DNA of 64,000 nucleotides, from assembly GCA_963667925.1 (NCBI GenBank), contig OY764080.1, positions 2,379,226-2,443,225 of the forward strand, read 5' to 3'. The translations under genes were made by a program, and so were the position numbers. Source of the DNA: Chloroflexota bacterium (GTDB lineage Bacteria > Chloroflexota > UBA11872). Positions within the stretch are counted from its first letter, which is position 1, and every line of letters starts with the position of its first letter. Of the stretch, positions 34,838-58,820 are shown piece after piece. Under the pieces are notes generated by a model. That model did no database searches. It saw only the letters and a list, made by a program, of their open reading frames with translations, and was not told where the DNA came from.

Positions 34838-35044
34838 TCGGTGAGCAACTGTGTTGAGGCGCCCGGCTCTTCACCCTCTCCAAGGGGAGAGGCAGGACCT
34901 TTCCTGAGCCAGCCGAAGGATTCGGCCGTCTTCGGCCGAAACCGGAGAGGGGTCTTCCGCTCATGCGCCCCACCCCAGCACCACGCAAGGACGCAACCCA
35001 CGACAGGCCGCGCCCCTCTTCACGCTCTCCGAGGGGAGAGGCAG
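34786..35044. repeat. Three copies of a ~30-bp palindromic repeat (CTCTTCACCCTCTCCAAGGGGAGAGGCAG) in the intergenic region upstream of the two-component operon
   Basis: Copies at 34786-34815, 34866-34896 and 35014-35044. Each holds the inverted repeat CCTCTCC-N4-GGAGAGG, and two are followed by a second small palindrome (GGCCGTCTTCGGCC). Confidence 0.8.
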
Positions 35045-35059
35045 GTTCGGCCGTCCTCG

Positions 35060-35896
35060 CTAGACGGCCACCGCCTCCACCGCGGCCGGAGCCGCGTCGC
35101 CGCCGGCAAAACCGCAGAATTCCTCGTAGTCGATCAGTTCCGTGATCGTCGGAGCGTCGCCGCAAACGGGGCACTCCGGGTCACGCCGCAGCTTCAACTC
35201 ACGGAATTCCATCTCCATGGCGTCAAGCAGCAGCAAGCGTCCCGACAGCGAGTTGCCAATGCCCGCAATGAGCTTCAGCACCTCGGTAGCCTGGATCAGC
35301 CCGATCAGGCCTGGCAAAACCCCAAGCACGCCGGCCTCCGCGCAACTCGGCGCCATCTCCGGTGGGGGCGGCGTCGGGTAAAGGCAGCGGTAGCAGCCGG
35401 CGCCGGGCTCAAACACCGTCGCCATGCCCTCAAAGCGCATGACACTCCCATCCACCAGTGGCTTTCCGAGGAAGTAGGCGGCGTCGTTCGCGAGATACCG
35501 GGTGGGAAAGTTGTCGCAGCCGTTGACCACAATGTCGTACGGCTCCAGGATTTCAAACGCGTTGTCGGAGGTCAGCGGCTCGTCGTGGCGCACCACGGTC
35601 ACGTCCGGATTCAGGCCGGTTAACGTCGCTTCCGCCGAGGCGGTCTTCGGCATCCCAACCCGATCGTCGCGGTGCAGAATCTGTCGTTGCAGGTTTGAAC
35701 GGTCGACGGTATCGAAGTCCACCACGCCCAGCGTGCCCACCCCTGCGGCGGCCAGGTAATAGAGCACGGGCGAGCCAAGCCCGCCGGCGCCAATGGCCAG
35801 CACTTTGGCATTGAGAATCTTGGCCTGGCCGGCCGCCCCAACCTCGGGCAGCAACATGTGGCGGCTGTAACGTTGAACTTGCTCAACGGTGAACAC
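35060..35896 (-). CDS. ThiF/MoeB-family E1-like adenylyltransferase (MoeZ/MoeB-type, with two CxxC zinc motifs)
   Basis: LAIGAGGLGSPVLYYLAAAGVG..DFDTVDRSNLQRQ; CYRC and CPVC motifs. Confidence 0.85.
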   Translation of the reverse strand: MFTVEQVQRYSRHMLLPEVGAAGQAKILNAKVLAIGAGGLGSPVLYYLAAAGVGTLGVVDFDTVDRSNLQRQILHRDDRVGMPKTASAEATLTGLNPDVTVVRHDEPLTSDNAFEILEPYDIVVNGCDNFPTRYLANDAAYFLGKPLVDGSVMRFEGMATVFEPGAGCYRCLYPTPPPPEMAPSCAEAGVLGVLPGLIGLIQATEVLKLIAGIGNSLSGRLLLLDAMEMEFRELKLRRDPECPVCGDAPTITELIDYEEFCGFAGGDAAPAAVEAVAV

Positions 35897-35926
35897 GGTC
35901 GAATACCTTCCAGCTAATGCCGGCGC

Positions 35927-36304
35927 TTAGTGCCCGGCGGGCGGTTCCTCGGTTTCGTAGCCGGCCTCGGCCCACTCGGTCATGCCGCCGGCCATGTTGT
36001 ACGCCTCGGTCACATTCAACGCCCGGGCCATCTGCGTCGCAACCGCGCTGGTCTGCCCGACGTTGCAAATGAACAGCAGGGGCTTCCCGGACGGGATGAC
36101 TTCGACCGGACGCGCCAGGATGTCGTCCAACGGCACATAATCGGCGCCTGGCATGGCCGGCGCGTGAAACTGCGTGCGGACGTCCACCACGTCCACCTCA
36201 CCGTTCTCGATCATCTCCTTCGCCTTGTGAATATCGACGTCGAAGTCAGGCGATCCAGGCAGACCCATTGTTTTGCACCATTCGGAAGTTCCGTCTACGC
36301 TCAA
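35927..36304 (-). CDS. Single-domain rhodanese sulfurtransferase
   Basis: Catalytic-Cys loop FICNVGQTS. Sits immediately upstream of the ThiF gene in the same orientation (split MoeZ arrangement). Confidence 0.8.
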   Translation of the reverse strand: MSVDGTSEWCKTMGLPGSPDFDVDIHKAKEMIENGEVDVVDVRTQFHAPAMPGADYVPLDDILARPVEVIPSGKPLLFICNVGQTSAVATQMARALNVTEAYNMAGGMTEWAEAGYETEEPPAGH

Positions 36305-36423
36305 GCATCGCGCCGTGAGGCCAACAGGTCAACGCAGAATTGTGGCGTCTCCGCGAGGTTTCCTACTGACGGCGCCCACCTTGACAAGGCTATGATCAGG
36401 CACGCACCTGTCACGACACCCTT

Positions 36424-38025
36424 GTGAACACCACCGAACTCGCATCCCGCCTCGCGGCGCCTGAAGTCCCTGACGACGTGGCCGCCAGGCTGCGCCGGCG
36501 GCTCGACGGATTGGACGGCAGCCTGGAAGGCCAGGAACGTCTGGTGCGTGCACTGGATTTACCGTGGGCGGCCAGCAGCGCCGCTCGGCCGCAAATCAGC
36601 GAACTTCACGCGCACCTGGTCGACGACCTCTTTCTCACGGACGAGGTGGCCGACCTGCTCTGCGACCACCTGGTGGTGCGTGAGCACCAGCTCACGTCAG
36701 CGCCCGATGCCACCGGACCGCGAGCGCTGCTTTCTCTTGTCGGCCCGCCGGGTGTCGGCAAATCGCATATTGCCCGTGAGGTCGCGGCGCAACTGGACCT
36801 GCCGCTGGCAACGATTCGCCTGGACCGCTTGGCTTCCCCCGACGAATTATTTGGGAATGAGCAGGCCCCCGGCGAAATCATGCGAGCAATTGAGCGGCTT
36901 GGGCAGAGTGAAGTCGTCCTCCTACTCGAGGAGATTGACGCGATTGGCGGCGGCTGGCCGACGACGTCGAACCAGAATCAGAGAATCAGCGACCGCTGGG
37001 CGGCGGCCCGCGCCACGCTCTTGGCCGCGCTCACGGACGCTGCGGCCCGCCGGCAGTTCCAGGACCGATTCTTCGACGTCCCGTTTGACTTGTCCCGAGC
37101 TCTCGTAATTACGACGGCACGTTGGTTGCCCGACCTTCCACCGTTGGAGCGCGGTCGGCTGGACATCGTGGAACTCGCCGGCTACGTGGACGATGACAAG
37201 GTGGCTATTGCGCGTGACTCATTGGCGCCAGCCATGCTGCGCGAATACAACGTGCCCTCGGACGACCTCGAAATCGAGGACGACGCGCTGTCCGCGCTGG
37301 TGCGCAGCTACACGGTCGAGCCGGGTATCGACGCACTCGACGGTCTGATTCGTCAGGTAGTCCGCCGTGCTCTGACGCGGCGCGCGCTCCAGGGTGAGTC
37401 TGGTCCCGTGTCCATAGCCATCGAAGACCTGGGAGCCACGGTCGGTCGGCCTACGCAGCTTGGCTTGCATCGCCGGCGGCGCGAGACTCCGGGAATGACC
37501 ACCGGAGCGGTGGTGCGGCGCAGCGGCGGGGTGCTTGGACAGATCGAGGCCGTGCAGATGCCCGGCGCCGGACGGATTCGGATTCTGGATACCTCCGGCG
37601 CGGACCTGTCCAGCCGCTACGCGATCGTGCCTTCGTACGTCCGGTCGCGGCTCTCGGACTTGGCCGTCTCGGCCCGGTCGCTCGAAGAGTTCGATACCGA
37701 CTTGCTCGTTCCTGCCAGTGACCTGCCGGGCGACGAAGGCTCCCTCGCCATCGCGGCGGCCATCGCCATGGTTTCCCTGATGCGCGACCGGGCGGCGGAT
37801 CCCGAGTTTCTGGCGATCGGTGGAATGACGGCGCATGGACACGTCCGTCGCGCGCAAGGCGTGCAGGCCAAGATTCTGGCGGCGCACCGCGGCGGCATTC
37901 GCCGGATCGTACTTCCGCGTCAGAACGAGCACGACCTGGACAGCATCCCCGCGCAGCTGCACGACGCCATCACCTTCATCCCCATCGACGAGGCCGGCCA
38001 GGGCATCAACGTCGCCCTCCGCTAG
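36424..38025 (+). CDS. Lon-like ATP-dependent protease paralog lacking the LON N-terminal domain (AAA+ module + S16 proteolytic domain)
   Basis: Lon pre-AAA helical region (DLPWAAS); Walker A GPPGVGKSH; Walker B-like LLLEEID (Asp to Glu at the first acidic position); proteolytic-domain Ser (GDEGSLAIAAAIA) and Lys (VQAKILAAHRGGIRRIVLP) both present. Confidence 0.75.
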   Translation: MNTTELASRLAAPEVPDDVAARLRRRLDGLDGSLEGQERLVRALDLPWAASSAARPQISELHAHLVDDLFLTDEVADLLCDHLVVREHQLTSAPDATGPRALLSLVGPPGVGKSHIAREVAAQLDLPLATIRLDRLASPDELFGNEQAPGEIMRAIERLGQSEVVLLLEEIDAIGGGWPTTSNQNQRISDRWAAARATLLAALTDAAARRQFQDRFFDVPFDLSRALVITTARWLPDLPPLERGRLDIVELAGYVDDDKVAIARDSLAPAMLREYNVPSDDLEIEDDALSALVRSYTVEPGIDALDGLIRQVVRRALTRRALQGESGPVSIAIEDLGATVGRPTQLGLHRRRRETPGMTTGAVVRRSGGVLGQIEAVQMPGAGRIRILDTSGADLSSRYAIVPSYVRSRLSDLAVSARSLEEFDTDLLVPASDLPGDEGSLAIAAAIAMVSLMRDRAADPEFLAIGGMTAHGHVRRAQGVQAKILAAHRGGIRRIVLPRQNEHDLDSIPAQLHDAITFIPIDEAGQGINVALR

Positions 38026-38252
38026 CCGTCCTGCCCACCCGCGGCGAGCGTGGGTGCCAACAGGTTCGAGCCGGCCAGGCGCCCCTGGCCGCATCCAAAT
38101 GGCCACCCGTCCAAATCGGAACTCCCTGGCTGCCCGCCCACGCCCCAACCAGGCGCCTGACGAGGAGACGAACGGGACGCAACTGGCTGGCGGTGGGATC
38201 GGGCTCGGTGCGCTCAGGGAAATGACACGGTAGCGGGACCCAGCGTCGTCTG

Positions 38253-41200
38253 ATGCGCCGCGGGCGGACATGCCGGTTTCGACGCGGAGCGAACGTTACT
38301 GTGAGTGTGTCTACACACTCAGGCCATCCAGGCAGAGGTCTTGTGCGGGGCGCTGGTGGGCGCGACGTGGCCTGGCGACTAGCCCTGTGGGTACGGGCGG
38401 CACGACGCGTGCGGCGGACGGCGCATCGCTTCCGGTCAGTGGCCGCTGCGGGTTTCTGGCTGGCGCTGTCGACCGCCGCCTGCGGGCCGAGCGAGCCGGA
38501 ACACCTGGGGGCGTCCTCGCACGTTCATCGGCTGTCGAACCCCACCTGGCGGGTCGCGCCGTCCATCGAAGAGCAGATCTTCCGGTCCACGACGATCGTG
38601 CGCGCGACGCTGCAGTCGGCGACGGCGGCGGTCGAGACGCTGCCCAGCGATCCGGGGGTGGCGCCCACCTACCAGGCGGTGCAGGAACTGCGCTTCACGG
38701 TGCACGAGTACCTGAAGGGGAGCGGCTCAACCGAACTGCTGGTGGTGGTGCGCGGCGGCCACGCCTACCAGACGGAGGCCGAGGCCCGCGACTTCTTGGA
38801 CTACCAGGTGCAGGCGCGGGTCACGACCTGGGACGAGCGGCAGGCGGTGCTCTTCCTGGAGGCGCCGTCGTCGCCGTACACCCAGGCCGCCGGCGGCGGC
38901 GAAGCGGCGGGCAGCTCCGCGACCACCTCGCCGGTCGTTTTGCAGTTCACCCGCTCGAACTATGGCCAGCCGCCGTGGGCCTACAGCGTGGACACGCTAC
39001 GACCGGCCTGGCTGCCCGCGGAGAACACGCCGGCTGAGGGGGAGGCGCCGACGGCCTTCATCACGGACGGCGCGCAATCGCCCTCGCCGACGATCACGCT
39101 GGCCGACCTGCGGGGCCGGATCGCGGCGCTGGCGGCGGAGCTGCAGGCGGGGGCAGGCGTCGACGGATTCCGGGAGTGCATTCTCACCAGAATCGGATAT
39201 GAACGGAGTCGCCGCGCCGACCCGTGGACGCCGCCTCTGGAAGCCGCGACCGTGGGCTCCGGGTCGGCGGCCGGGACTGACGTGAGTCGTGCGGCATATA
39301 GATATGACGATCCGCAATACAGTCGCTACTGGCTCAGCGGCTCAGACTCGGGGCGCTTCCATGCCGTAGTCATCGATGCCGATGGCGTGCCGAGCACTGG
39401 ATATGACCATTCGCTGGCTACCACCCGGCCCCTGCCGAACGGCACGTATCACGTGCGTTACAACTGGCAACACCCTTCGGAAATCCCCTGTGGCTTTGCG
39501 CCCGATGATTCCTACGATGATTTCACCGTCACGGTCACGGCGCCTACCGGGACGGTGCACGAGGCGTTCTTCGATCCGGCGGCGCTGGGCAGCGGGGTCG
39601 TCGGGCGGGACGCCGCCCACGGGGTGCTGGCGCCGGCGGCGGTCGGCACGGCCGGCGGCGCCGCGGGCGCCGCAGCCAGCAGCGGGGCCAGCACGACGGC
39701 CGCGACCCTGCGGCGGCTGACCTGGGACGCGGGGCAGTTGCGGCTGGACGTGAGCGGTACGACCCTGGCCGGGCAGCAACTGGAGCTGATCCGCCTGGAC
39801 GGGACCGTGGGGCTGACGCTGCGCGGCGACGCCGCCGTCGCCACGGCCACCGCCGACGGCCACGAACTGCGCTGGCCGGTCTGCGAGCAACCCTGGCAAC
39901 CGGGCGAGCGCCTGATGCTGCGAATCAGTCCCGTCCCGGCGGGCGACTCGCCGGCAGCCCCGGCCTGCCCCGGCGCCCCCGCCCTGCCCACCGTGACGGT
40001 CGACACGACGGCCCCGGCGGCCGGGGCGCCCGCAACCCTGACGGCGGCGGTCCCGAGCGACGCCGGCGCCGCGACCTACCAGTGGCAGCGCGACGTGGGC
40101 GGCGTCTGGACGCCGGTGGACGCGGCCGGCGCGGCCTACGAAGCGCGCGCGCTGACCGCCATGACCGGCAGCTGGCGCGTGCAGGCGCGCTACGCCTCCG
40201 GGGCCGTGGCCCACTCGGCGCCGGTGACGCTGACCTGGCCGGCCGCGGCCACGCCCCCGTGCCGCAACGGGATAACGGTCCCCACGCCCACAACCAATAC
40301 CGGCCTGGTGCAGGACTGCACGGCCTTGCTTGAGGCGCGGGACGCGCTGGCCGGGCCCGGCCGCCTGAACTGGGACGGGTCGCGGGCGCTCAGCGCCTGG
40401 ACCGGGGTGAGCGTGGGCGGCACGCCGCAACGGGTGACGGCGCTGCGGCTGGGCGCGCAGGGCCTGACCGGCCCCGTGCCGGCGGCGCTGGGCGCGCTGA
40501 CCCAGTTGACGGCGCTGGACCTGCGCGGCAACGCCCTGACCGGCGCGCTGCCCACCGCCCTCGGCGCGCTGACGCGGCTGACCGACCTCCACCTGGCCGG
40601 CACCCGGCTGACCGGCTGCCTGCCGGCCACCCTAGCCGGGGTGGCGACCACGGACGCGGCGGCGCAGGGGCTGGCCGCCTGCCAGGCGGGCCCGGCATTC
40701 GGGGCGCCCCGCTACGCGTGGATCGTGCCGGCCGGTCTGCCGCCGGGCGCAGCCATTGGCCAGGTGCAGGCGACCGATCCGAACGGCGGGACCGTGACCT
40801 ACGCGCTCACGGCGGGCAATGACGCCAGCGTGTTCCAACTCGACGCGGCCACCGGCATCCTGTCGGTGGCGGGGACGCTGCCGGCGGGCGGCGCCGGATT
40901 GACGGTGACCGCCACGGACGCCCAGGGGGGCGCCACCCGCGTGCCGCTGGTCGTGGCGGTGGCCGACGACGCCCAGCGATCACCGCCGGTGTTCCCGGCC
41001 GCCGGCTGGACCTTCCACGTGGCCGAGAACGCGGGCGTGGAGACGGTCGTTGGAACAGCTGCGGCCCGCGACCTCGACGGCGGCCCGCTGACTTACGCCC
41101 TCACAGCCGGCAACACGGCGGGGACTCTTGCGCTCGACCCCAGCTCCGGGCTGCTCACCGTCGCCGGGCCGTTGCACCACGCCACCACCCCCCACTACAC

Positions 41201-41279
41201 CCTGACGCTTACGGCCACCGACGCCCATGGCTTAACTGCGACCGCCACCGTGACGATCACCGTGACGGTCGTCGTCTAG
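38253..41279 (+). CDS. Large secreted/surface protein with Ig-like, plant-type LRR (LxxLxLxxNxLTGxLP) and cadherin-like repeat domains
   Basis: Signal-like N-terminus (AAGFWLALSTAACG); LRR block GLTGPVPAALGALTQLTALDLRGNALTGALPTALGALTRLTDLHLAGTRLTGCLP; two cadherin-like repeats (ATDPNGGTVTYALTAGNDASVFQLD.., ARDLDGGPLTYALTAGNTAGTL). Ends TITVTVVV. Confidence 0.7.
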   Translation: MRRGRTCRFRRGANVTVSVSTHSGHPGRGLVRGAGGRDVAWRLALWVRAARRVRRTAHRFRSVAAAGFWLALSTAACGPSEPEHLGASSHVHRLSNPTWRVAPSIEEQIFRSTTIVRATLQSATAAVETLPSDPGVAPTYQAVQELRFTVHEYLKGSGSTELLVVVRGGHAYQTEAEARDFLDYQVQARVTTWDERQAVLFLEAPSSPYTQAAGGGEAAGSSATTSPVVLQFTRSNYGQPPWAYSVDTLRPAWLPAENTPAEGEAPTAFITDGAQSPSPTITLADLRGRIAALAAELQAGAGVDGFRECILTRIGYERSRRADPWTPPLEAATVGSGSAAGTDVSRAAYRYDDPQYSRYWLSGSDSGRFHAVVIDADGVPSTGYDHSLATTRPLPNGTYHVRYNWQHPSEIPCGFAPDDSYDDFTVTVTAPTGTVHEAFFDPAALGSGVVGRDAAHGVLAPAAVGTAGGAAGAAASSGASTTAATLRRLTWDAGQLRLDVSGTTLAGQQLELIRLDGTVGLTLRGDAAVATATADGHELRWPVCEQPWQPGERLMLRISPVPAGDSPAAPACPGAPALPTVTVDTTAPAAGAPATLTAAVPSDAGAATYQWQRDVGGVWTPVDAAGAAYEARALTAMTGSWRVQARYASGAVAHSAPVTLTWPAAATPPCRNGITVPTPTTNTGLVQDCTALLEARDALAGPGRLNWDGSRALSAWTGVSVGGTPQRVTALRLGAQGLTGPVPAALGALTQLTALDLRGNALTGALPTALGALTRLTDLHLAGTRLTGCLPATLAGVATTDAAAQGLAACQAGPAFGAPRYAWIVPAGLPPGAAIGQVQATDPNGGTVTYALTAGNDASVFQLDAATGILSVAGTLPAGGAGLTVTATDAQGGATRVPLVVAVADDAQRSPPVFPAAGWTFHVAENAGVETVVGTAAARDLDGGPLTYALTAGNTAGTLALDPSSGLLTVAGPLHHATTPHYTLTLTATDAHGLTATATVTITVTVVV

Positions 41280-41306
41280 GCGCCTGCGTTCGCGGCGGCG
41301 CCGTGA

Positions 41307-41420
41307 TCGTTCACGTTCGCCGAAGTTGCGGCCGTGCGGACGGCGGTAGGCCTGGTAGTCGCGACGGATCCCGGGCGCGGGGCAATGACGCACACGCTGA
41401 CGGCAGGGAATGACGAGGGC
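41307..41420 (+). pseudogene. Decayed in-frame remnant of an additional cadherin-like repeat downstream of the surface-protein stop
   Basis: Same frame as 38253-41279. After two stops (TAG 41277, TGA 41304) the frame encodes ..VVATDPGRGAMTHTLTAGNDEGPLL.., homologous to the ATDPNGGTVTYALTAGND repeats. Confidence 0.4.
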
Positions 41421-41499
41421 CCGCTTCTACGATCACAATCGCCTGAGCTAGCGAAGCTGGCGCGCAGCCCTTGTTGCGGACGCGGCAGACCGCGGGCGC

Positions 41500-44535
<3,036 letters not shown>

Positions 44536-44539
<4 letters not shown>

Positions 44540-45732
44540 CCACCGCCTACTTCGATTGCCTGGCCGGCGCCAGCGGCAACATGATCCTCGGCGCCCTGCT
44601 CGACGCCGGCCTCGACAAAACCCGCCTCCTCGCCGAACTCCGCAAGCTCGACCTCCCCCCCTGGAAACTCCGCGACGAACGAGTCCAACGCGGCCTCATC
44701 CAGGCCCGCCTGGTCGACTTCGATATCCAAGACCGCGGCCACCACCACCCCTACACCGACATCGACGCCCGCATCGCCGCCGCCGACCTCAAACCCCAAA
44801 TCCGGGATGAAGCCCGCCAAATCTTCCGCAACCTCGCCGAAGCCGAAGCCCACGTCCACGGCACCCCCGTAAACCAGGTCGAGTTCCACGAAGTCGGCGC
44901 CGCCGACTCCGTGCTCGATGTCGTCGGCGCCGCCGTTGCCTTCCACCTGCTGGGCATCAATCACGTCGTCGTATCCCCCATCAACACCGGCAGCGGCTGG
45001 GTTGAAACCGCCCACGGCCGCCTCCCCGTCCCCGCCCCCGCCACCACCCAACTCCTCGCCGGCAGCGGAGCCGTCGCCTACGGATCCGATGTCAAGTTCG
45101 AACTCCTCACCCCCACCGGCGCCGCCGTCCTCACCCATGCGGCCCACGCCTTCGGCCCCCTGCCCCCCATGCGCGTGCTCCAAACCGGCTACGGCGCCGG
45201 AACCGCTCGCCTCGCCATCCCCAACGTCCTCCGCGTCACCCTCGGCCAGCCCGTCCAGTCCAACCAGGCCGACACCGCCACCGTCATCGAAACCAACATC
45301 GACGACATGAACCCCGAGGCCTACGAATACGTCGCCGCCCGCCTCTTCGCCGCCGGCGCCCTCGACGTCTGGACCGCCCCCATCGTCATGAAAGGCGGCC
45401 GCCCCGCCACCCAACTCTGCGCACTCGGCTCAAACGACACCGCCGCCGCCCTCATCGACCTGATCCTGACCGAAACCACCACCCTCGGCGTCCGTACCTA
45501 TCAGGTCCAGCGAACCAAGCTCCAACGCGCCAGCTACAGCGTCACCACCCCCTACGGCGACATCCGCGTCAAAGCCTCCTACCTCCACGGAACCCTGCGC
45601 GACGCCGCCCCCGAGGCCGCCGACTGCCGCCGCATCGCCGCCGACCAGGGAGTCCCCTGGCGCGACGTGTACGATGCCGCTCGATCCGCCGGACGCGCCG
45701 CCGCGCCCCCCAGTCCCAACCCCGCGGATTAA
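44536..45732 (+). CDS. larC: Nickel-insertion protein LarC (DUF111, pyridinium-3,5-bisthiocarboxylate mononucleotide nickel chelatase)
   Basis: MTTAYFDCLAGASGNMILGALLDAG.. LarC N-terminus; ATGA overlap with larB. Confidence 0.85.
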
Positions 45733-45744
45733 AAGGCCCAGGCA

Positions 45745-46218
45745 ATGTCCGAATCAGATTCCCCGGTCGTCCCCAGCGCCCAGGGCGACGTCGTTCAAGT
45801 CACCGAAGCCGCCGTCGGATCCGTCCGCGCCGACCGCGTCGTCTCCCAGCGCACCACCATGCGCCACACCCACGCCCAGCATGTCCAGGCCGACCGCTCC
45901 CTCATGCTCATGAACCGCACCGACCAGCTCAACGTCACCCGCGGCGCCCTCGGCGGCGCCACCTCCGGTCGAACCCAGGTCCGCAACGCCGCCATGGGCG
46001 TCAACGTCAGCGGCAACGCTCGGCTCGAGAACGTCGCCGCCAGCTGGGTCGTCGCCGGCAACGTCCAGGCCGACCGCGTCCTCAGCCTCGCCGTCATCGG
46101 CGGCAACGTCTCCGGCAACGTCCGCGCCCTCTTCGGAACCCGCGCCGCCATCGCCTTCGGCATCACCCTCGGCCTCTCCACCCTCCTCGCCCGCCTCCTA
46201 ACCCGCCTCCTCCGCTAA
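45745..46218 (+). CDS. Hypothetical protein with bactofilin-like beta-helical repeats and a C-terminal transmembrane helix
   Basis: Repetitive G/N/V-rich pattern (GVNVSGNARLENVAASWVVAGNVQADRVLSLAVIGGNVSGNV) and C-terminal hydrophobic AIAFGITLGLSTLLARLL. Assignment tentative. Confidence 0.4.
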   Translation: MSESDSPVVPSAQGDVVQVTEAAVGSVRADRVVSQRTTMRHTHAQHVQADRSLMLMNRTDQLNVTRGALGGATSGRTQVRNAAMGVNVSGNARLENVAASWVVAGNVQADRVLSLAVIGGNVSGNVRALFGTRAAIAFGITLGLSTLLARLLTRLLR

Positions 46219-46413
46219 CCAGCCGAAGGGCCTGCCCTGAGCCTGTCGAAGGGGATACCCGCCTTCATCCCCGTCCTCTCTCACTCCTCTGCCCTCTCCA
46301 CTCTCCCCGTCGCCGCGTCTCAGACCCGCCCGTCTTCCGCGCAACCCGCATCGCGACAGCAACCCAGCCAGCGCGAAGAGACCCATGCCCCACAGCCTCT
46401 CCAGCGAAACACC

Positions 46414-47478
46414 CTAAGCCTCAAACTCCTCCAACCGCACCGTCCGCTGCTCATCGCTGCTCCGCACCCCCGCCGCCGCAATCCGAATCGTATTCAGGTT
46501 GTCCCGGCTCGACGTCAACGGCTCACGCCCTTCGTTCAGCGCGGCCATTAGTTCGCCCATGCTCCCGCCGAACGCCTCTGGGAACCACGACCCCTCGATC
46601 GGAAATCGCACCCGACGCTCCGGTTCGTCTCGCTGCGTCACGTCCACCCACTGCGGGCTGCCGGTAATCGAACCCTCCGCGCCGTCGATGTGCCAGAACT
46701 CCGAGTGCCCCGCCTTGCTTTGCACGATGTTGTTGAAGTGATCGATAGCCGTCAGGTCGCCGCTGTCGAAGTGCAGCGCCAGCGTGTGACTCAACGGCGA
46801 AACCGCGTTCTGGCCCTGCATCATCGCCGTCGTCGCGCTCACCGCGTCCGGCGTTCGCCCGCTGAAGTGACGGATCAGGTCCAGGAAATGCACCCCGTGG
46901 TCCACGATGTTGAAGTTCACCACGTCGCGCCACCACTTGTCCGGCTGGTCCTGGTACCCCCGCCGCACGTGCGCAACGCTGAACAACGGGCCACAGATCC
47001 TCGACTCGATCAGCAGCTTGATCGCCGCGTGCGCCGGCGCCCACCGCGCTTGCTGGTTGATCATCAGCGTCACCCCGGCGTCCCGCGCCGAGTTCGACAA
47101 CCACGCCGCGTCCTCCCATGTCATGGCGAAGGGCTTCTGCGACAGGATCGGCTTCTCCGCCGCCAGTAGCGCCGGCCACAGCTCCAGCCGCGCATGCGGA
47201 TGCACCGCCAGGTCGATCACCTCAACCTGATCGTTCTCCAGCACCACCCGCGGATCGGTCCCAGCCGCCTCAATCCCCCATCGCGCCTGCGTCGATTCCA
47301 CCGCCGCCGAATCAATATCGCTGCACGCCACCACCTCGTACCCAAAGTCCCGGTACGCCGGCAAGTGAGCCCCGTTCGCAATCCCACCACACCCGATCAA
47401 CCCAATCCGGTAGTGCCGCCCGCGCGGCGGCTTCGGCCGGTAGTTCCCTGGAGTCAGTCGCAATTCGTCCAGCTTCAT
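46414..47478 (-). CDS. Gfo/Idh/MocA family oxidoreductase
   Basis: YRIGLIGCGGIANGAHLPAY Rossmann N-terminus. ATG start MKLDEL at 47476-47478; the ORF-track extension to 47622 is rejected. Confidence 0.8.
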   Translation of the reverse strand: MKLDELRLTPGNYRPKPPRGRHYRIGLIGCGGIANGAHLPAYRDFGYEVVACSDIDSAAVESTQARWGIEAAGTDPRVVLENDQVEVIDLAVHPHARLELWPALLAAEKPILSQKPFAMTWEDAAWLSNSARDAGVTLMINQQARWAPAHAAIKLLIESRICGPLFSVAHVRRGYQDQPDKWWRDVVNFNIVDHGVHFLDLIRHFSGRTPDAVSATTAMMQGQNAVSPLSHTLALHFDSGDLTAIDHFNNIVQSKAGHSEFWHIDGAEGSITGSPQWVDVTQRDEPERRVRFPIEGSWFPEAFGGSMGELMAALNEGREPLTSSRDNLNTIRIAAAGVRSSDEQRTVRLEEFEA

Positions 47479-49492
47479 GCCCACTACCTCAGCGGCAATC
47501 CACGAGAGAATGCCATGCCTCCACACTTCATCATCGACTCCCACCAACCTTTCTGATTCAAACCCGGCATCATTGACCCCAACGACCGCCCAACTCGCAA
47601 CCCGAGGTGACGGCTTGATCACGAACCCACTGGATCGACGCGCACCCGACGCCGGATATCAGGGTTCGCACCGCGCGTACGATTCCGTCGTGTTGCCCGA
47701 CGTCCTCATTCCGGCGCGCGACGGCGTGCAACTGGCTGCCGATATCTACCTGCCGACCCTCAACGGCCGCCAGGTCGACGGGCAGTTTCCGGCGCTCATC
47801 GAGCGCACCCCGTACCTCAAGGACTCCGGCCGCTACGCACGCAAGGCGCACTGGTACGCACGTCGCGGCTACGCCGTCGTCATCAACGACGTCCGTGGCC
47901 GCGGTCGCTCCGGCGGTGAGTGGTATCCCTTTGCCAGAGAAGCCCCCGACGGCTACGACGCCGTGGAGTGGATCGCGGTCCAGCCCTGGTGCAACGGCCG
48001 CGTCGGCACCATGGGCAACTCCTACGCCGGGTCCGACCAGAGCGCCCTGGCCACCCTCAACCCGCCGCACCTGCGCGCCCAGGTCGTCGGCCAGGGCGCC
48101 AGCAACTACCTGATCTCGTCCATGCGCCAGGGCGGCGCCCTGGAACAGCGCTTCATCAGCTATGCCTACCGCATGGCCGTCACCAGCCAGGAAGCCGGCG
48201 CCGACCCCGACCTTGAGCGCGTCCTGCGCGCCGAGTTCGAACGCGTGCCCGAGATCCTGGGCCCACCCCTGCGCTTCCGCCCAGGCCGCACCGCACTCCG
48301 CTTGCTTCCGCTCTACGAACAATGGGCCTGGGACATCCTCACCCAAGGCGGCAGTGGGCCCTACTGGTCCCAGCGCGGCTACACCATCGATGAGTATTGG
48401 CACGAGCACGCCGACGTCCCGGTCCTCTTCCAAAGCGGCTGGTACGACACCTACCCCCGCAGCGCCATCGCCAACTTCCACGCCCTCCGCCGCCTCAGGT
48501 CCAGTCCCATGTCGTTGCTCCTGGGCCACTGGCGCCACGGCGAGCCCACGACCGAGGAGACCTCCGCCGGCGACGTGGACTTAGGCCTCGAATCCGCCCT
48601 CCCCCTCTACGACGATCTGCGCTTGCGCTTCTTCGATCACCACCTCAAGGACCTGGAAACCGGTCTCGACCGCGAGCCGCCTGTCCGCTACTTTGTCATG
48701 GGCGGACAACTCGGCCGACCGCCCGCCGACCTCGAAGGGCGCCTCTGGCACGGCGGCCGCTGGGAATCGGCCGACAAATGGCCGCCGCCCGCCGCTGCCG
48801 AAACCGCCCTCTTCCTGCAGACCGACGGCTCGCTCACCAGCGAAACACCCAACAAGCCGACCGGCCCAACCCGCTTCACCTACGACCCGCGCAATCCGGT
48901 TCCCACCACCGGCGGTTCCATCAGCGCCGCCGAGGAAGCCCTGCCATCCGGCGGCTTCGATCAGCGCGGCCAGCCCGGCCGCTTCCACGGCCACCACGAC
49001 ACCCTCTCCCTGGCCAGCCGCCCCGACGTCCTCAGCTTCGAGACTGCTCCGTTCGACGCGTCGTTCGAGATCGCCGGCCCCGTCGAGGTCGTGCTTTTCG
49101 CCTCCAGCAGCGCCATCGACACCGACTTCACCGCCAAGCTGCTCGACGTATATCCGCATAGCCACGCCACGCCCGGCGGGTACGAGCTCAACCTGGCCGA
49201 CAGCATCCTCCGCGCCCGCTACCGCAACGGCTACGACGGCGAAGAGTTCCTGCAGCCCGAGGAGATCTACGAGTTCCGCATCGTCCTCTACCCCACCGCC
49301 AACCGCTTCGCCCCCGGCCACCGGCTTCGCGTGGACATCTCCTCGTCCAACTATCCCCGCTTCGACGCCAACCCCAACACCGGGGAGCCGCTTGGCCAAT
49401 CCCGGCGCGTCGAGATGGCCCACCAGGCCGTCTACCACGACCCCGACAACCCCAGCCGCCTGCTCGTCCACGTCCGGCCTGTCGCGGAATGA
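47477..49492 (+). CDS. CocE/NonD family alpha/beta hydrolase (S15 X-Pro dipeptidyl-peptidase-like)
   Basis: VLIPARDGVQLAADIYLP..ALIERTPY..GNSYAG and a C-terminal beta-sandwich. Start uncertain (ATG 47477 or 47510). Confidence 0.8.
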   Translation: MPTTSAAIHERMPCLHTSSSTPTNLSDSNPASLTPTTAQLATRGDGLITNPLDRRAPDAGYQGSHRAYDSVVLPDVLIPARDGVQLAADIYLPTLNGRQVDGQFPALIERTPYLKDSGRYARKAHWYARRGYAVVINDVRGRGRSGGEWYPFAREAPDGYDAVEWIAVQPWCNGRVGTMGNSYAGSDQSALATLNPPHLRAQVVGQGASNYLISSMRQGGALEQRFISYAYRMAVTSQEAGADPDLERVLRAEFERVPEILGPPLRFRPGRTALRLLPLYEQWAWDILTQGGSGPYWSQRGYTIDEYWHEHADVPVLFQSGWYDTYPRSAIANFHALRRLRSSPMSLLLGHWRHGEPTTEETSAGDVDLGLESALPLYDDLRLRFFDHHLKDLETGLDREPPVRYFVMGGQLGRPPADLEGRLWHGGRWESADKWPPPAAAETALFLQTDGSLTSETPNKPTGPTRFTYDPRNPVPTTGGSISAAEEALPSGGFDQRGQPGRFHGHHDTLSLASRPDVLSFETAPFDASFEIAGPVEVVLFASSSAIDTDFTAKLLDVYPHSHATPGGYELNLADSILRARYRNGYDGEEFLQPEEIYEFRIVLYPTANRFAPGHRLRVDISSSNYPRFDANPNTGEPLGQSRRVEMAHQAVYHDPDNPSRLLVHVRPVAE

Positions 49493-49517
49493 ACTCCGGC
49501 TGCCTGGAGGAAGGAAC

Positions 49518-50054
49518 ATGACCGAGCTAAAGATCGGAAACACCCGCTTGACGCTCGTCCAGGGGGACATCACCGTTCAGCAGGTGGACGCCATCGTGAA
49601 CGCCGCCAACGCGGCCCTCAGGGGCGGCGGAGGCGTGGATGGCGCCATCCACCGCGCCGGCGGACCCGACATCATGGCCGAATGCCGCCGGATCGGCGGC
49701 TGTCCTACCGGCGAAGCGGTCCGCACCACCGCCGGCCGCCTCCCCGCCAACCACGTCATCCACGCCGTCGGTCCCATCTGGACCAGCGGCAACGTCGGCG
49801 AACCTGATCTGCTCGCCTCCGCCTACCGCTGCTCGCTCCAGATCGCCGCCGCCCACGGCGCGCGCACCGTCGCCTTCCCCTCCATCAGCACCGGCGTCTA
49901 CGGCTTTCCCAAGGACCTGGCCGCCGAAACGGCCCTCAGCGCCGTCACCGAAGTCCTCCCGAATCTAGACCTCGTCGAAGTCCGCTTCGTAGTCTTCGGC
50001 GACAAAGACCTCGCGGCCTACCGGCAGGCGATGCAGGCCAGGGCTTCCGAGTGA
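49518..50054 (+). CDS. Macro-domain protein (O-acetyl-ADP-ribose deacetylase / ADP-ribose-binding, YmdB-like)
   Basis: LVQGDITVQQVDAIVNAANAALRGGGGVDGAIHRAGG macro motif; SD GGAGGAAGG 5 nt upstream of the ATG. Confidence 0.85.
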   Translation: MTELKIGNTRLTLVQGDITVQQVDAIVNAANAALRGGGGVDGAIHRAGGPDIMAECRRIGGCPTGEAVRTTAGRLPANHVIHAVGPIWTSGNVGEPDLLASAYRCSLQIAAAHGARTVAFPSISTGVYGFPKDLAAETALSAVTEVLPNLDLVEVRFVVFGDKDLAAYRQAMQARASE

Positions 50055-50692
50055 CTGACGACGCCGAACAACGCGCCGGCCGCCGCACCCGCGAGCATTG
50101 GGAGGCCAGGTACCGGGAACGCGAAACGCCCTGGGACGACGGTCAACCCTGGGGCCCGCTTCCCGACCTGCTGAACCGCTTCGCCCCACCCGGTGGCCGT
50201 CTGCTCGACATCGGCTGCGGCCTCGGCGGCAAAGCCGCCCAGATGGCCTCACTCGGCTACCGCGTCCTTGGCGTCGACATTTCGCAGGCGGCAATCGACG
50301 AGGCCCGACGCCTGACCGCCGGCCTGAACGGCGAACTTGAACTCCGCCGCGCGAACTTTCTCGAGGAATCCCCCGACACTCCATTCGACCTCGCCTTCGA
50401 CCGCAGCGTCTGGGCCACATTCGACGAGTCTGGCCGCGCCGCCTTCGCTCGCCAGGTGACCACCTGGCTCGCGCCTGGAGGCCACTGGATCAGCCTCACC
50501 GGCTGCGCCGACAACCGCGATCCCGAAACCGGTGAACCTGACCCGCGCGGCTACCCCCGCCACTCCCTCCAGGCCATCGTCACTTGCTGCGAGAGCCACT
50601 TCGAAGTCCTCGAAGTGAGCCGCCAACCCTTCGGCGCAACTTCCGACACCGACTTCACCGCCTGGGTGACGGTTATGCGGATTCGGGACTGA
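50051..50692 (+). CDS. TPMT/TehB-like class I SAM-dependent methyltransferase
   Basis: HWEARYRERETPWD..LLDIGCGLGGKAAQMASLGYRVLGVDIS; ATGA coupling to the macro gene. Confidence 0.75.
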   Translation: MTDDAEQRAGRRTREHWEARYRERETPWDDGQPWGPLPDLLNRFAPPGGRLLDIGCGLGGKAAQMASLGYRVLGVDISQAAIDEARRLTAGLNGELELRRANFLEESPDTPFDLAFDRSVWATFDESGRAAFARQVTTWLAPGGHWISLTGCADNRDPETGEPDPRGYPRHSLQAIVTCCESHFEVLEVSRQPFGATSDTDFTAWVTVMRIRD

Positions 50693-50949
50693 GCTGGAGA
50701 GTCGACGGGCTTCGGTCTTGGGGCGGCTTTGCGGGGTACTCGGGATGGCTTCGTAGACTGACCAGTTCTTCGCGGTGTGCATTGCGCGACCTGATTCGAA
50801 TGGGGACTTCGGCGTCGGCGGTTTGGGGGATCCCTGAGGCGATCCTGGGACGATAGAGGCAGACGATCCCCCCGGGTCAGCCGTGAGCGGGGTTGCTGAG
50901 GGGTTGGCGCGGTTGATCATGGTGCAGGGGCCCGGCAGCAGACGCCGGG

Positions 50950-52644
50950 GTGATGGACAGGATTGGAAGGGGAGATTCCCTTCAACAGGCTGAGGGCAGG
51001 CTCTCGGAGGGCCTTGGGATGACGGACGGGACGGTTGGGGAGTTACGGGAGGCAGCAGCGGCGCTGTGCGTTGAGAACCAGCCGGTGGAGTTTGGGTTGG
51101 CGAACTATGACCTGGCGGGGGCGCTGCTGGGCGGGGATGCTCCAACTGACGAGCTAGAGGAAGCGGCGCAAGCGGCGGCGCGAGCGTTGCTGGTGTTTAC
51201 ACCGCAGGAACTTCCGGACCTCTTTGCCGGGGCTAGCGAGCGCCTGGGGCAGGCGCAGTGGCGGGCAGGGCGACGCGAGGACGCGCAGCGGACGTACGCG
51301 CAGACGGCGGGGGCGCTGGGCGCGGTTGGACAACATGGGCTGCAAGCGCGGTTGCTGGCGGGCTACGCGCGGGCCGTGGGTCAGGCGGCGAAACCGGAAG
51401 ATCCGTTCAGTGTCCAGCGGGCGGTCGGAGTATTTGACGAGGCGATCGAGGCCGCGCGGATAGCTGAGGCAAAGGGCTTGCTGGTGTCGCTGCTGAATAG
51501 TTCGGGCCGGCTGCTGGCGGGCAACCCGGCGTCGGCGGATAAGGCGTTGTCGCGGTTCGACGAGGCGGCCGAGGCGGTGGTCGACACGGACGTTGGGGTG
51601 GCGATGGCGGTTCACGCGAACCGTGCGGCGGCGTACGGGTTGCGGGAACGGGGCGATCGGGACACGAACCTGCAGGAGGCGATCGCGAGCTACAACCGGG
51701 CGGTCCACCTCCCGGGCATTTCGGATCATCCGCTTGAGGCAGCGCACTTGTACCGGGCGCTGGGAACGGCGTGGGGTCAGCGTCCCGGCGGCGACCGGGC
51801 GCAGAATCTACGGCAGGCGGACAGCGCGCTGGCAGCGGCGCTGGAGCTGCTGACGGACGACGCGCAGCAGAGCGAGCGGGCGTCGATGTGGAGCGAGCGT
51901 GGACTGGCGCAGGCGGAACTTTCGCAACGAGGGATTCCGGGGGCCACGAGCGCCGCGGTCGAGGCGTTCCGGGAAGGCCTGAATGCGGCCAGCGGGGGTG
52001 AGGCGCCGGCGCTGGCGGCTCAGCTGGCGAACAACCTGGGGTCGGCGATCATGACCGCGGCCGGCCAGGGTCTGGAGGCTTCGCTGGCGGAGGCGGCGGA
52101 GGCGCTTGACCGGGCGGCGGAGATTTGGACGTCGCTGAATCAGCCGGAGGACGCAGGGGCGAGCCAGCTGAACGCGGGGCTGGTGTACATGACGCTGCAC
52201 TCGACGGAACGGGACGCGGCGCACCTGGACAAGGCGATCGAGCGTTTGCAGGGCTCAACGGCGGCGCGTCCGCTGGCCACGCACCCGGGGCCGCACGCCG
52301 TCGCGCAGTTCAACCTGGGAATGGCGCTGGCGTTTCGGGCCCAAGGCCGAAACGAAACGGACCTGGCGGCGAGCGTGGAGGCCTTTCGAACGGCCTTGCA
52401 GGTGTGGAAAGGTCCGGACGCGCCACCGCAGGCGGCGGTGGCGCACGCGAACCTGGGAAGCATGCTGTTCGGAATGGCGAAGCAGAACGAGCCCGAGCTG
52501 TTGCGGGACGCGGCGCATCACTACGAGCAGGCGCTGGCGGTATACACCCCGGCGACAAACCCGCAGCAGCACCAGGTGATTTCGAACAATCTGGCGCTCG
52601 TGAGGCGGAGACAGGGGTTGGGTGCGGGAAATGGGGCGGTTTGA
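50950..52644 (+). CDS. Tetratricopeptide-repeat (TPR-like) protein
   Basis: Long all-alpha sequence with recurring A-rich ~34-aa repeats (..AHLYRALGTAWGQ.., ..QFNLGMALAFRAQGR.., ..HANLGSMLFGMAK..). Confidence 0.55.
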   Translation: MMDRIGRGDSLQQAEGRLSEGLGMTDGTVGELREAAAALCVENQPVEFGLANYDLAGALLGGDAPTDELEEAAQAAARALLVFTPQELPDLFAGASERLGQAQWRAGRREDAQRTYAQTAGALGAVGQHGLQARLLAGYARAVGQAAKPEDPFSVQRAVGVFDEAIEAARIAEAKGLLVSLLNSSGRLLAGNPASADKALSRFDEAAEAVVDTDVGVAMAVHANRAAAYGLRERGDRDTNLQEAIASYNRAVHLPGISDHPLEAAHLYRALGTAWGQRPGGDRAQNLRQADSALAAALELLTDDAQQSERASMWSERGLAQAELSQRGIPGATSAAVEAFREGLNAASGGEAPALAAQLANNLGSAIMTAAGQGLEASLAEAAEALDRAAEIWTSLNQPEDAGASQLNAGLVYMTLHSTERDAAHLDKAIERLQGSTAARPLATHPGPHAVAQFNLGMALAFRAQGRNETDLAASVEAFRTALQVWKGPDAPPQAAVAHANLGSMLFGMAKQNEPELLRDAAHHYEQALAVYTPATNPQQHQVISNNLALVRRRQGLGAGNGAV

Positions 52645-54853: not shown

Positions 54854-54868
54854 GAGGATCCGCGAAGA

Positions 54869-56842: not shown

Positions 56843-56868
56843 AAATGTCTGCTCGCCGTTCGACTCGA

Positions 56869-58798: not shown

Positions 58799-58820
58799 GA
58801 CGGGGCGCGGCACGAGGCGG

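What the first reader, a model, noticed from the sequence alone, without database searches (positions are those of the whole stretch)
38253..41420. 1008-aa plant-type-LRR plus cadherin surface protein with a decayed in-frame tail
The combination of an LRR block matching the plant receptor-like consensus (LxxLxLxxNxLTGxLP) with cadherin-like repeats is an adhesin-like architecture rare in bacteria. Immediately after its stop, in the same frame and separated by two stop codons (41277 TAG, 41304 TGA), the DNA still encodes a recognisable cadherin-repeat core (VATDPGRGAMTHTLTAGNDEGP). The gene appears recently truncated and may have lost a C-terminal anchor or sorting domain.
Basis: seen in the sequence. 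Interest (0 to 1): 0.55.

Follow-up and report, generated by a model that had tools for sequence, protein, structure and literature searches.

The report
Surface lipoprotein with dead cadherin stub
This is an intact gene for a lipid-anchored bacterial surface protein built from animal- and plant-like adhesion modules, and the stretch after its stop codon is the dead stub of one lost cadherin repeat, not of a lost anchor; the stub is ordinary, but the fast-evolving gene family may interest people who study sponge symbionts.

Summary
ORF 38253-41279 (+) encodes 1008 aa at most; the deposited product is 978 aa. It has two Pfam cadherin repeats and three 24-residue plant-type LRRs with a plant-like N-cap. 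After TAG 41277 and TGA 41304, the same frame encodes the first 47 residues of a third cadherin repeat (55-64% identical to intact third repeats of paralogs; z = 21 against shuffles).

Four independent assemblies of the syntenic locus carry both stops, so this is neither a sequencing error nor a strain-level event. Paralogs with an intact third repeat end right after it. Long paralogs end after their last cadherin with no sorting signal. The predicted anchor is an N-terminal lipobox cysteine, so at least one cadherin repeat was lost, and nothing points to a lost anchor.

The truncated gene looks functional (intact in four genomes, dN/dS about 0.38). It is a mosaic recombination hot spot: dS 0.24-0.30 against 0.04-0.07 in flanking genes.

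It belongs to a multi-copy Chloroflexota family, some members from sponge MAGs. The family's N-terminal domain is predicted to have a TIMP/NTR-like fold. In 25 of 42 family loci, but not here, a matrixin-type protease gene lies directly upstream.

The parts
38253..41279 (+). Maximal ORF (1008 codons plus TAG). The deposited product starts at GTG 38343 (978 aa). GTG 38409 is the start that best fits the signal peptide.
38409..38483 (+). Predicted signal peptide with a lipobox-like end (RRTAHRFRS-VAAAGFWLALSTAA-C77). Cys77 would be the lipid-anchored first residue of the mature protein.
   Evidence: Direct reading. 64 of 120 homologs have a hydrophobic run followed by [A/T/V]AAC and then G(P), with a median Cys position of 30. 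No SignalP or LipoP run was possible, so this is inferred.
38538..38867 (+). N-terminal OB-fold domain (about aa 96-205) predicted to resemble the TIMP/NTR module. It contains no cysteine.
39099..39218 (+). Two long helices (about aa 283-322) that pack on the OB domain.
   Evidence: AF2 models
39237..40235 (+). Three predicted beta-sandwich / Ig-like domains (about aa 329-440, 484-560 and 580-661), separated by an Ala/Gly-rich low-confidence linker.
40260..40433 (+). LRR N-terminal cap of plant LRRNT_2 type (C670...C689, ...SAWTGVSVGG...).
   Evidence: It aligns to the N-cap of the plant receptor kinase GSO1, i-E 1.6e-10. Coordinates.
40434..40649 (+). Three 24-residue plant-specific-type leucine-rich repeats. 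A Cys-containing C-cap follows, up to about 40688.
   Evidence: Weak NCBIfam hits to the Xanthomonas LRR effectors XopAC, XopAE and XopL.
40689..40982 (+). Cadherin repeat 1 (aa 813-910).
   Evidence: Pfam Cadherin; internal alignment
40983..41276 (+). Cadherin repeat 2 (aa 911-1008). Its end, VTVVV, replaces the VTD(V/I)AY linker found in paralogs.
41277..41279 (+). Stop codon TAG. It aligns with a TAT (Tyr) codon in the repeat 2 / repeat 3 linker VTDVAYAPSF of paralogs, so it is a single-base nonsense change.
   Evidence: L017, L023 against the window; shared by L001, L002 and L050
41280..41420 (+). Relic of the first half (47 codons) of a third cadherin repeat, with a second in-frame stop TGA at 41304-41306. 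It is non-coding.
41335..41482 (.). Two copies of the 8-bp direct repeat TGCGGACG (41335-41342 and 41475-41482). One ortholog (L001 / OZ242271.1) has lost exactly the 140 bp between them.

Best explanation
What the gene encodes. It encodes a predicted surface lipoprotein of a Chloroflexota bacterium. From the N-terminus, the predicted layout is:
- a signal peptide ending in a lipobox-like cysteine, which would anchor the protein to the membrane;
- an OB-fold domain with a TIMP/NTR-like fold;
- a helical hairpin;
- three Ig-like beta-sandwiches;
- a plant-type LRR block with caps;
- two cadherin repeats at the distal tip.

The most likely function is binding of an extracellular protein or matrix ligand, possibly a sponge host's or a neighbouring cell's. 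The Ig/cadherin rod would act as spacer and the LRR plus cadherins as binding surfaces. This step is inferred, not shown.

What the tail is. The DNA at 41280-41420 is the dead remnant of a third cadherin repeat. The ancestor of this locus had at least three repeats. A Tyr codon in the repeat 2 / repeat 3 linker became TAG, a second stop (TGA) arose nine codons later, and the second half of the repeat was deleted. All of this happened before the four sampled strains diverged. Since then the relic has drifted at roughly the neutral rate, and one strain has lost a further 140 bp by slippage between 8-bp direct repeats.

What was lost. At least one distal cadherin module was lost, and nothing points to a lost anchor. 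The shortened gene is still in use, and it keeps exchanging sequence blocks with paralogs elsewhere in the genome.
For: Shown:
- ORF, domains and stop codons.
- The relic is homologous to third repeats of paralogs: E about 1e-14, z 21.5. DNA-level similarity reaches only as far as 41420.
- The syntenic loci L001, L002 and L050 (Lon-like gene, this gene, SGL on the minus strand, enolase, larB-like, larC-like) carry both stops.
- L001 has a 140-bp deletion between TGCGGACG repeats.
- TAG aligns with TAT of paralogs.
- Three-repeat paralogs end just after repeat 3. Long paralogs have no sorting signal. The lipobox-like N-terminus is conserved.
- The ORF is intact in four genomes with dN/dS 0.37-0.39, and 0.15-0.41 over the cadherin part.
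- dS is 0.24-0.30 in the gene against 0.04-0.07 in enolase and the Lon-like gene.
- The best-matching locus changes block by block between syntenic orthologs and paralogs.
- The tail differs by 5 and 8 positions in about 221 nt from L002 and L050, close to the flanking synonymous rate.

Inferred: lipidation, surface exposure and the adhesive role. These rest on the domain types and on the reported enrichment of cadherin, Fn3 and LRR proteins in sponge-associated MAGs (PMC8163846, PMC9531527, PMC6306507).
Against: - No expression or localisation data exist.
- The lipobox has T, A or V rather than L at position -3, and no dedicated predictor was run.
- The start codon is uncertain.
- The low dN/dS could partly be imported from functional paralogs by gene conversion rather than reflect selection at this locus.
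- No syntenic ortholog with an intact third repeat was found, so the ancestral length at this locus (three repeats, or more, or repeats plus other domains) is unknown. The paralogs closest to the relic (P0026, P0043) continue after repeat 3 into further sequence (read by eye as GLUG-like in P0043; not tested here), ending in P0026 in a metalloprotease-like tail.
- The Ca2+-binding motifs of the two retained repeats are degenerate, so classical Ca2+-dependent cadherin behaviour is doubtful.
Confidence: 0.8

Rival explanations
1. The in-frame stops are assembly or sequencing errors, or very recent strain-specific mutations, and the real protein continues into an intact third repeat or a sorting domain.
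For: The tail is in frame, and there are no indels over its 47 codons.
Against: TAG and TGA are identical in four independent assemblies from different samples. The second half of the repeat is missing in every frame. Read-through would run 163 codons into the antisense of the convergent SGL gene. One ortholog has already deleted most of the tail.
Confidence: 0.02
2. The whole gene is a decaying pseudogene, and the tail is just the most visible part of that decay.
For: It has lost a repeat. It lacks the matrixin partner gene that accompanies 25 of 42 family loci. Its repeat 2 has lost linker and Ca2+-site residues (LHHATT and VTVVV instead of LDYETT and VTDV).
Against: A reading frame of about 980 codons is intact in four genomes despite about 10% amino-acid divergence. 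dN/dS is 0.37-0.39 overall and 0.15-0.41 in the cadherin part. The body diverges several-fold faster than the tail at synonymous sites, in mosaic blocks. This fits active exchange with paralogs rather than passive decay.
Confidence: 0.08
3. The tail is kept as a silent donor or acceptor fragment for recombinational variation of this hypervariable gene family, as silent cassettes are in antigenic-variation systems.
For: The gene is a mosaic of blocks shared with paralogs. Isolated cadherin fragments sit next to other family members, for example a 124-aa cadherin ORF upstream of P0015 in L004.
Against: It is a single fragment, contiguous and in frame with the gene's own end. Its divergence is close to the neutral rate of the flanks. 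It is partly deleted in one strain. The exchanged blocks stop before it: the last block, 40700-41276, matches syntenic orthologs best.
Confidence: 0.05
4. The protein's main role is not adhesion. Through its TIMP/NTR-like N-terminal domain it binds or regulates a metzincin protease, as in the Listeria Mtz-Tim pair. The LRR and cadherin part would target or present that activity.
For: NTR/TIMP folds top two independent fold searches. A Pfam Matrixin gene (31-37 bits against a cut-off of 24) lies immediately upstream on the same strand in 25 of 42 family loci, including members only 27-41% identical. A metzincin plus TIMP-like lipoprotein gene pair in the same order is documented in Listeria and other Gram-positives (PMC8235301).
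Against: - This window's copy has no matrixin gene upstream or anywhere in the 64 kb.
- The TIMP hallmarks are absent: there is no free N-terminal Cys-x-Cys and there are no disulfides. No Cys occurs between aa 78 and 308.
- No sequence-profile link was found.
Confidence: 0.3

Closest known systems
Eukaryotic-like proteins (LRR, cadherin, Fn3) of sponge-associated bacteria, including Chloroflexota
   Same: The domain types are the same. Family members occur in Chloroflexota MAGs, some named in the scheme of a Caribbean Ircinia sponge study (jk18x..bins, PMC9531527). The family is multi-copy, with at least four copies in one 3.4-Mb genome. The literature proposes host attachment and interaction (PMC8163846, PMC6306507).
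   Different: Those studies count Pfam domains. This particular architecture (lipobox, TIMP/NTR-like OB domain, three Ig-like domains, plant-type LRR, variable cadherin/Fn3 array) and its roughly 570-aa Pfam-less N-terminal module are not described in the papers I could search. The sponge origin of the window's own genome was not verified.
Plant-specific (PS) class LRRs of plant receptor kinases, and their bacterial look-alikes in the Xanthomonas effectors XopAC/AvrAC, XopAE and XopL
   Same: A 24-residue period, an LxxLxLxxNxLTGxLPxxLGxLxx pattern and an LRRNT_2-like cap. The top PDB sequence hits are plant LRR-RLK ectodomains. There are weak NCBIfam hits to Xop LRRs.
   Different: There are only three repeats. 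The conserved Asn is kept in one repeat only. There is no kinase and no type III effector context. Here the block sits in a lipoprotein between Ig-like and cadherin domains.
Listeria monocytogenes Mtz-Tim (metzincin plus TIMP-like lipoprotein pair; PMC8235301)
   Same: At family level: a metzincin gene immediately followed by a gene for a lipobox protein whose N-terminal domain is TIMP-like by structure prediction only; the host is not a classical Gram-negative.
   Different: Tim is a small single-domain protein, whereas this family adds 700-1700 aa of Ig, LRR, cadherin and Fn3 modules. No sequence similarity was detectable (one search found nothing in phage genomes). The window's copy is unpaired.
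Internalins of Listeria (LRR followed by an Ig-like inter-repeat region; surface adhesins and invasins)
   Same: An LRR block is fused to Ig-fold domains on a surface-anchored protein thought to bind host proteins.
   Different: The LRR class differs (22-residue internalin type against 24-residue plant type). The anchor differs (C-terminal LPXTG or GW modules against an N-terminal lipobox). There is no homology beyond the generic folds, and Pfam InlK_D3 gives only E 0.055.
Repeat-number variation and 3' decay in bacterial adhesin genes with tandem Ig or cadherin-like repeats
   Same: Paralogs carry 2 to 10 or more C-terminal cadherin repeats. This copy lost its distal repeat. Fragments and split ORFs occur at other family loci.
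   Different: Here the loss came from a nonsense mutation plus a partial deletion, which left a recognisable stub. It was not a clean unequal crossover between repeats.

Membership tests
Cadherin-domain proteins (Pfam PF00028) | Profile match above the gathering threshold | tested here: met
   72.1 bits against 28.8, E 5.3e-20, two repeats
Cadherin-domain proteins (Pfam PF00028) | Inter-repeat Ca2+-binding motifs (xEx, DxD, LDRE, DxNDNxP) | tested here: inconclusive
   By reading. Repeat 1 has ATDPNGG, lacks the E and LDRE equivalents, and its linker is VADDAQRSPP. Repeat 2 has AEN and RDLDGG, but LHHATT and VTVVV replace LDYETT and VTDV. Ca2+ binding cannot be decided from sequence.
Plant-specific (PS) class LRR | Tandem 24-residue repeats fitting LxxLxLxxNxLSGxIPxxLGxLxx | tested here: met
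   Three exact 24-residue units at aa 728-799. The Asn position is kept only in unit 2. The top PDB hits are plant LRR-RLKs.
Plant-specific (PS) class LRR | LRRNT_2-type N-terminal cap (Cys pair, W.GV motif) | tested here: met
   C670/C689 and SAWTGVSV. It aligns to GSO1 residues 36-129 with i-E 1.6e-10. Pfam LRRNT_2 itself was not reported at E <= 10.
Bacterial lipoproteins (Sec/SPII) | Signal peptide ending in lipobox [LVI][ASTVI][GAS]C | tested here: inconclusive
   The sequence here is RRTAHRFRS-VAAAGFWLALS-TAAC. The family consensus is (A/T/V)AAC followed by GP in 64 of 120 homologs. Position -3 is not L, V or I in most members. No SignalP or LipoP was available.
TIMP / NTR module | OB-fold of the NTR type | tested here: met
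TIMP / NTR module | Conserved cysteines and disulfides, including the N-terminal Cys-x-Cys whose free amino group chelates the protease zinc (TIMPs) | tested here: not met
   There is no Cys between aa 78 and 308. The only nearby Cys is the lipobox Cys77, 18 or more residues before the domain.
TIMP / NTR module | Sequence-profile match (Pfam TIMP/NTR, or PDB TIMP sequences) | tested here: not met
   No Pfam hit at E <= 10 other than DUF7513 at 0.02. A 22-sequence profile found nothing in the PDB at E <= 10.
Metzincin plus TIMP-like lipoprotein gene pair (Listeria Mtz-Tim type) | Metzincin gene immediately upstream on the same strand | tested here: not met
   At the window locus the upstream gene is Lon-like, and there is no M10-like sequence in the 64 kb. 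At family level the feature is met in 25 of 42 loci.
Metzincin plus TIMP-like lipoprotein gene pair (Listeria Mtz-Tim type) | The protease cleaves or binds the lipoprotein | not testable with these tools
   This needs biochemistry.
Internalin family | 22-residue internalin LRRs with cap and inter-repeat Ig domain, plus a C-terminal LPXTG or GW anchor | tested here: not met
   The LRR period is 24 and plant type. There is no LPXTG or GW in this protein or its long paralogs. InlK_D3 gives only E 0.055.
Gene-fragment relic (unitary pseudogenised repeat) | Significant homology to a functional domain, disabling mutations, no selective constraint | tested here: met
   Homology z is 21.5. There are two stops and half the domain is missing. 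Divergence of 2-4% is close to the flanking synonymous rate, and one strain has a 140-bp deletion.

The most novel reading that the evidence does not exclude
The family to which this gene belongs may be a bacterial counterpart of the animal MMP/TIMP pairing. In that reading, a matrixin-type protease and a lipid-anchored protein with a TIMP/NTR-like head are co-encoded in most family loci. The partner protein then carries a hypervariable stalk and an LRR/cadherin tip that is reshuffled among paralogs by gene conversion. This would give sponge-associated Chloroflexota a diversifying set of tools for binding or remodelling extracellular matrix. The window's copy would be an unpaired, tip-shortened derivative of that system.
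Probability: 0.25. Interest if true: 0.65.

Novelty: new variant of a known kind. Interest (0 to 1): 0.38.

Why it matters
The flagged tail is an ordinary relic. It shows that the distal cadherin array in this family is expendable and variable, and that the protein needs no C-terminal anchor.

The surrounding family is of more interest:
- It is uncharacterised. In a search of 1.84 billion cluster representatives, 713 match the N-terminal domain.
- It is multi-copy and evolves by mosaic exchange between paralogs.
- It combines four module types better known from plants and animals: TIMP/NTR-like, Ig-like, plant-type LRR and cadherin.
- In most family loci it is paired with a matrixin-like protease gene.

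If the sponge association and the protease link hold, the family offers concrete candidates for how abundant sponge Chloroflexota attach to or modify host matrix. So far that question has been addressed mainly by counting domains.

Tried and rejected
- Exact-sequence look-ups of the window's own products (P0001, P0008, P0051) found nothing on record. The other family copies in the same genome could therefore not be inspected.
- I looked for an ortholog with an intact third repeat at the syntenic locus. P0015, P0019, P0020 and P0024 have the same unusual leader, but they sit at a different locus, between VanZ-like and miaA-like genes. The ancestral state at this locus stays unknown.
- I looked for the missing second half of repeat 3 in the other frames. 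A short match, 'RGPASTITIA*', in frame +2 resembles repeat ends, but no search supports it. I rejected it as chance in low-complexity, GC-rich DNA.
- No terminator or promoter consensus was found in 37900-41700.
- The afdb50 fold library was unavailable.
- Sequence-level tests of the TIMP/NTR idea were all negative: Pfam at E <= 10, a PDB profile search, and tblastn against phage genomes that might hold Listeria mtz-tim.
- No relic of a matrixin gene was found upstream of this gene.
- Literature look-ups of the MAG names and accessions found nothing. Only the jk18x..bins naming scheme could be tied to a sponge study.


Full report
**1. The observation**

The + strand ORF 38253..41279 is real (1008 codons). 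1008 aa is the maximal reading. The public product with 100% identity (P0001) starts at GTG 38343 and has 978 aa. A start at GTG 38409 would give a normal-length signal peptide.

Pfam finds two cadherin repeats: E 5.3e-20, 72.1 bits against a cut-off of 28.8, over aa 813-1008.

The LRR block is three exact 24-residue units at aa 728-799, with the pattern L-T-x-L-x-L-x-G-x-x-L-T-G-x-L-P-x-A-L-G-A-L-T-x. A Cys-flanked cap containing SAWTGVSV precedes it. A phmmer search of all PDB sequences with aa 657-812 returns plant LRR receptor kinases as the top hits (GSO1 3.9e-92, FLS2, PEPR1, ERL1, BRI1 and others), and the cap aligns with the N-cap of GSO1. 'Plant-type LRR' is therefore correct. The Pfam LRR models hover around their cut-offs because there are only three repeats.

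After TAG (41277-41279) the frame reads APAFAAAP, then TGA (41304-41306), then SFTFAEVAAVRTAVGLVVATDPGRGAMTHTLTAGNDEG.

**2. The tail is a relic of a third cadherin repeat**

- tblastn with the C-termini of paralogs hits the tail at 55-60% identity over 47 residues, E 1e-13 to 1e-14.
- Against all 120 homologs, the best hits are mostly the repeat that directly follows repeat 2. The top hit is P0040, at 63% and E 1.8e-14.
- The alignment score is 21 standard deviations above 2000 shuffles.
- The DNA itself matches cadherin repeats at paralog loci at 70-77%.
- Similarity stops at about 41420. The second half of the repeat is not present in any frame. The 80 bp up to the stop of the convergent SGL gene (41500) match only syntenic orthologs.
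- TAG aligns with a TAT tyrosine codon in the linker VTDVAYAPSF of paralogs.

**3. Age of the truncation, and what was lost**

Three other assemblies hold the same locus in the same gene order: Lon-like AAA+ protease, this gene, SGL on the minus strand, enolase, larB-like, larC-like. All carry both stop codons at the same positions.

Two of them keep the whole tail, with 5 and 8 differences in about 221 nt. The third has lost exactly the 140 bp between two copies of TGCGGACG (41335-41342 and 41475-41482), a typical slippage deletion.

The stops are therefore not sequencing errors. They predate the divergence of these strains, whose flanking genes differ by dS 0.04-0.07.

The relic is at most 64% identical to any intact third repeat. 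The equivalent half of repeat 2 is 80-89% identical to the same paralogs. This is consistent with drift, or with an unsampled donor.

Paralogs with three repeats (P0021, P0022, P0027, P0030, P0031; 1055-1084 aa) end a few residues after repeat 3. Paralogs of 1650-1970 aa go on with more cadherin repeats and an Fn3 domain, and also end right after the last cadherin. None has LPXTG, PEP-CTERM or a hydrophobic tail.

By contrast, 64 of 120 homologs begin with a basic stretch, a hydrophobic run and (A/T/V)AAC followed by GP, that is, a lipobox-like cysteine. Here this is ...VAAAGFWLALSTAAC77-GPSEP.

So the anchor is most likely N-terminal. What was lost is at least one distal cadherin module, and nothing points to a lost sorting domain.

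One caveat applies. The paralogs closest to the relic (P0026, P0043) continue after repeat 3 into further sequence (by my reading GLUG-like in P0043, untested), and P0026 ends in a metalloprotease-like tail. The ancestral C-terminus at this locus is therefore not known precisely.

**4. The truncated gene is alive and unusually dynamic**

The frame is intact in all four genomes. dN/dS is 0.37-0.39 overall and 0.15-0.41 over the cadherin part.

Synonymous divergence inside the gene (dS 0.24-0.30) is four to seven times that of enolase and the Lon-like gene (0.04-0.07). Identity along the gene is mosaic. For example, 39150-39600 is 58-74% identical to L001 and L050 but 90-100% to L002.

The best-matching locus changes block by block between syntenic orthologs and paralogs at other loci:
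- 38850-39150 is best matched by the paralog of L003/L009, at 92.3%.
- 39600-40700 is best matched by the paralog L022, at 94%.
- Only the last block, 40700-41276, is best matched by syntenic orthologs.

This is the signature of gene conversion or recombination among family members. The tail lies outside the exchanging region and diverges at about the background rate.

**5. The rest of the protein, and the family**

The first roughly 570 residues after the signal peptide match no Pfam or NCBIfam model. They are nevertheless the conserved core of the family.

The family's distribution is as follows:
- There are 172 hits in the word-indexed search.
- In a search of 1.84 billion cluster representatives, 713 match the N-terminal domain at E <= 1e-3.
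- All 42 loci found in GTDB species representatives are Chloroflexota or Dehalococcoidia MAGs, with at least four copies in one 3.4-Mb genome.
- Several of these MAGs use the jk18x..bins naming of a Caribbean Ircinia sponge study (PMC9531527).
- Cadherin, Fn3 and LRR genes are reported as enriched in sponge-associated MAGs (PMC8163846, PMC6306507).
- The habitat of the window's own genome was not verified.

AlphaFold models built on a 100-sequence alignment are confident (pLDDT 83.8 for aa 76-690 and 87.6 for aa 94-335). They show an OB-fold domain, two long helices and three beta-sandwiches.

This is fold resemblance only:
- No sequence profile links the domain to TIMP or NTR.
- The domain has no cysteine, so the TIMP hallmark of an N-terminal Cys-x-Cys and disulfides is not met.

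**6. A family-level association noticed on the way**

In 25 of the 42 family loci, a gene ending 10-250 nt upstream on the same strand encodes a large secreted protein whose C-terminal domain matches Pfam Matrixin (Peptidase_M10; 31-37 bits against a cut-off of 24; motif HEFGHTLGLGH). This includes family members only 27-41% identical to the query.

A metzincin gene followed by a gene for a TIMP-like lipoprotein has been described experimentally in Listeria. There the protease cleaves and releases the lipoprotein (PMC8235301).

The window's copy is not paired. Its upstream gene is Lon-like, and no matrixin-like sequence exists in the 64 kb. I therefore treat the protease link as a hypothesis about the family (about 0.25-0.3), not as a property shown for this gene.

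**7. Verdict**

It is an ordinary, fixed loss of one distal repeat in a still-functional surface lipoprotein gene, not a recent loss of an anchor.

The gene belongs to an uncharacterised, recombining, multi-copy family with an unusual mix of plant- and animal-like extracellular modules. I rate the flagged feature itself as low interest and the family context as moderate.

Noticed in passing
Family loci L003, L007, L009-L016, L018-L027, L031, L033, L036, L039, L041, L044 (about 10-250 nt upstream of the family gene); absent from window 1-64000: A matrixin-type (Pfam Peptidase_M10, HEFGHTLGLGH) protease gene, often with Fn3 and He_PIG domains, lies directly upstream on the same strand in 25 of 42 family loci. 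Together with the TIMP/NTR-like fold predicted for the family's N-terminal domain, this suggests a protease-partner pair like Listeria Mtz-Tim.
   Followed up: partly
window 38343-41276 compared with L001, L002 and L050: The gene's synonymous divergence (dS 0.24-0.30) is 4-7 times that of the flanking enolase and Lon-like genes. Its best-matching locus switches block by block between orthologs and paralogs, which points to mosaic gene conversion.
   Followed up: partly
window 34859-38882 compared with L002 2557-6597: In one otherwise 94-97% identical strain, the rhodanese / ThiF / Lon-like segment upstream is only about 83.5% identical (Lon-like dS 1.26, against enolase 0.07). This suggests a separate imported recombination tract.
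   Followed up: no
L004 4118-4492; L006 8067-8447: Other family loci also carry fragments next to the main gene: a 124-aa cadherin ORF upstream of P0015, and a 126-aa ORF just after the two-repeat P0024. This hints that repeat loss and fragmentation recur in the family.
   Followed up: no
window 42465-45732: Downstream of the convergent SGL gene lies enolase, followed by larB-like (AIRC) and larC-like (Ni_insertion, E 3.6e-134) genes. These are the cofactor genes of the nickel-pincer lactate racemase system, and they are syntenic in all four strains.
   Followed up: no
window 52861-54564: This ORF matches Trp_halogenase and FAD-binding families (E 7e-37). It is a flavin-dependent halogenase-like gene.
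   Followed up: no
window 42000-62000: GC skew is strongly negative (-0.21 to -0.31) from 42 to 50 kb. It then switches to +0.10 to +0.23 from 50 to 62 kb, so cumulative skew reaches its minimum near 50 kb. Whether this reflects gene orientation or a replication landmark was not examined.
   Followed up: no
window 38001-42000: G+C is 71-73% over the gene, against 61-67% upstream of it (1-38 kb) and 61-71% downstream. The Ala/Gly/Thr/Pro-rich protein composition probably explains this, but foreign origin was not tested.
   Followed up: no
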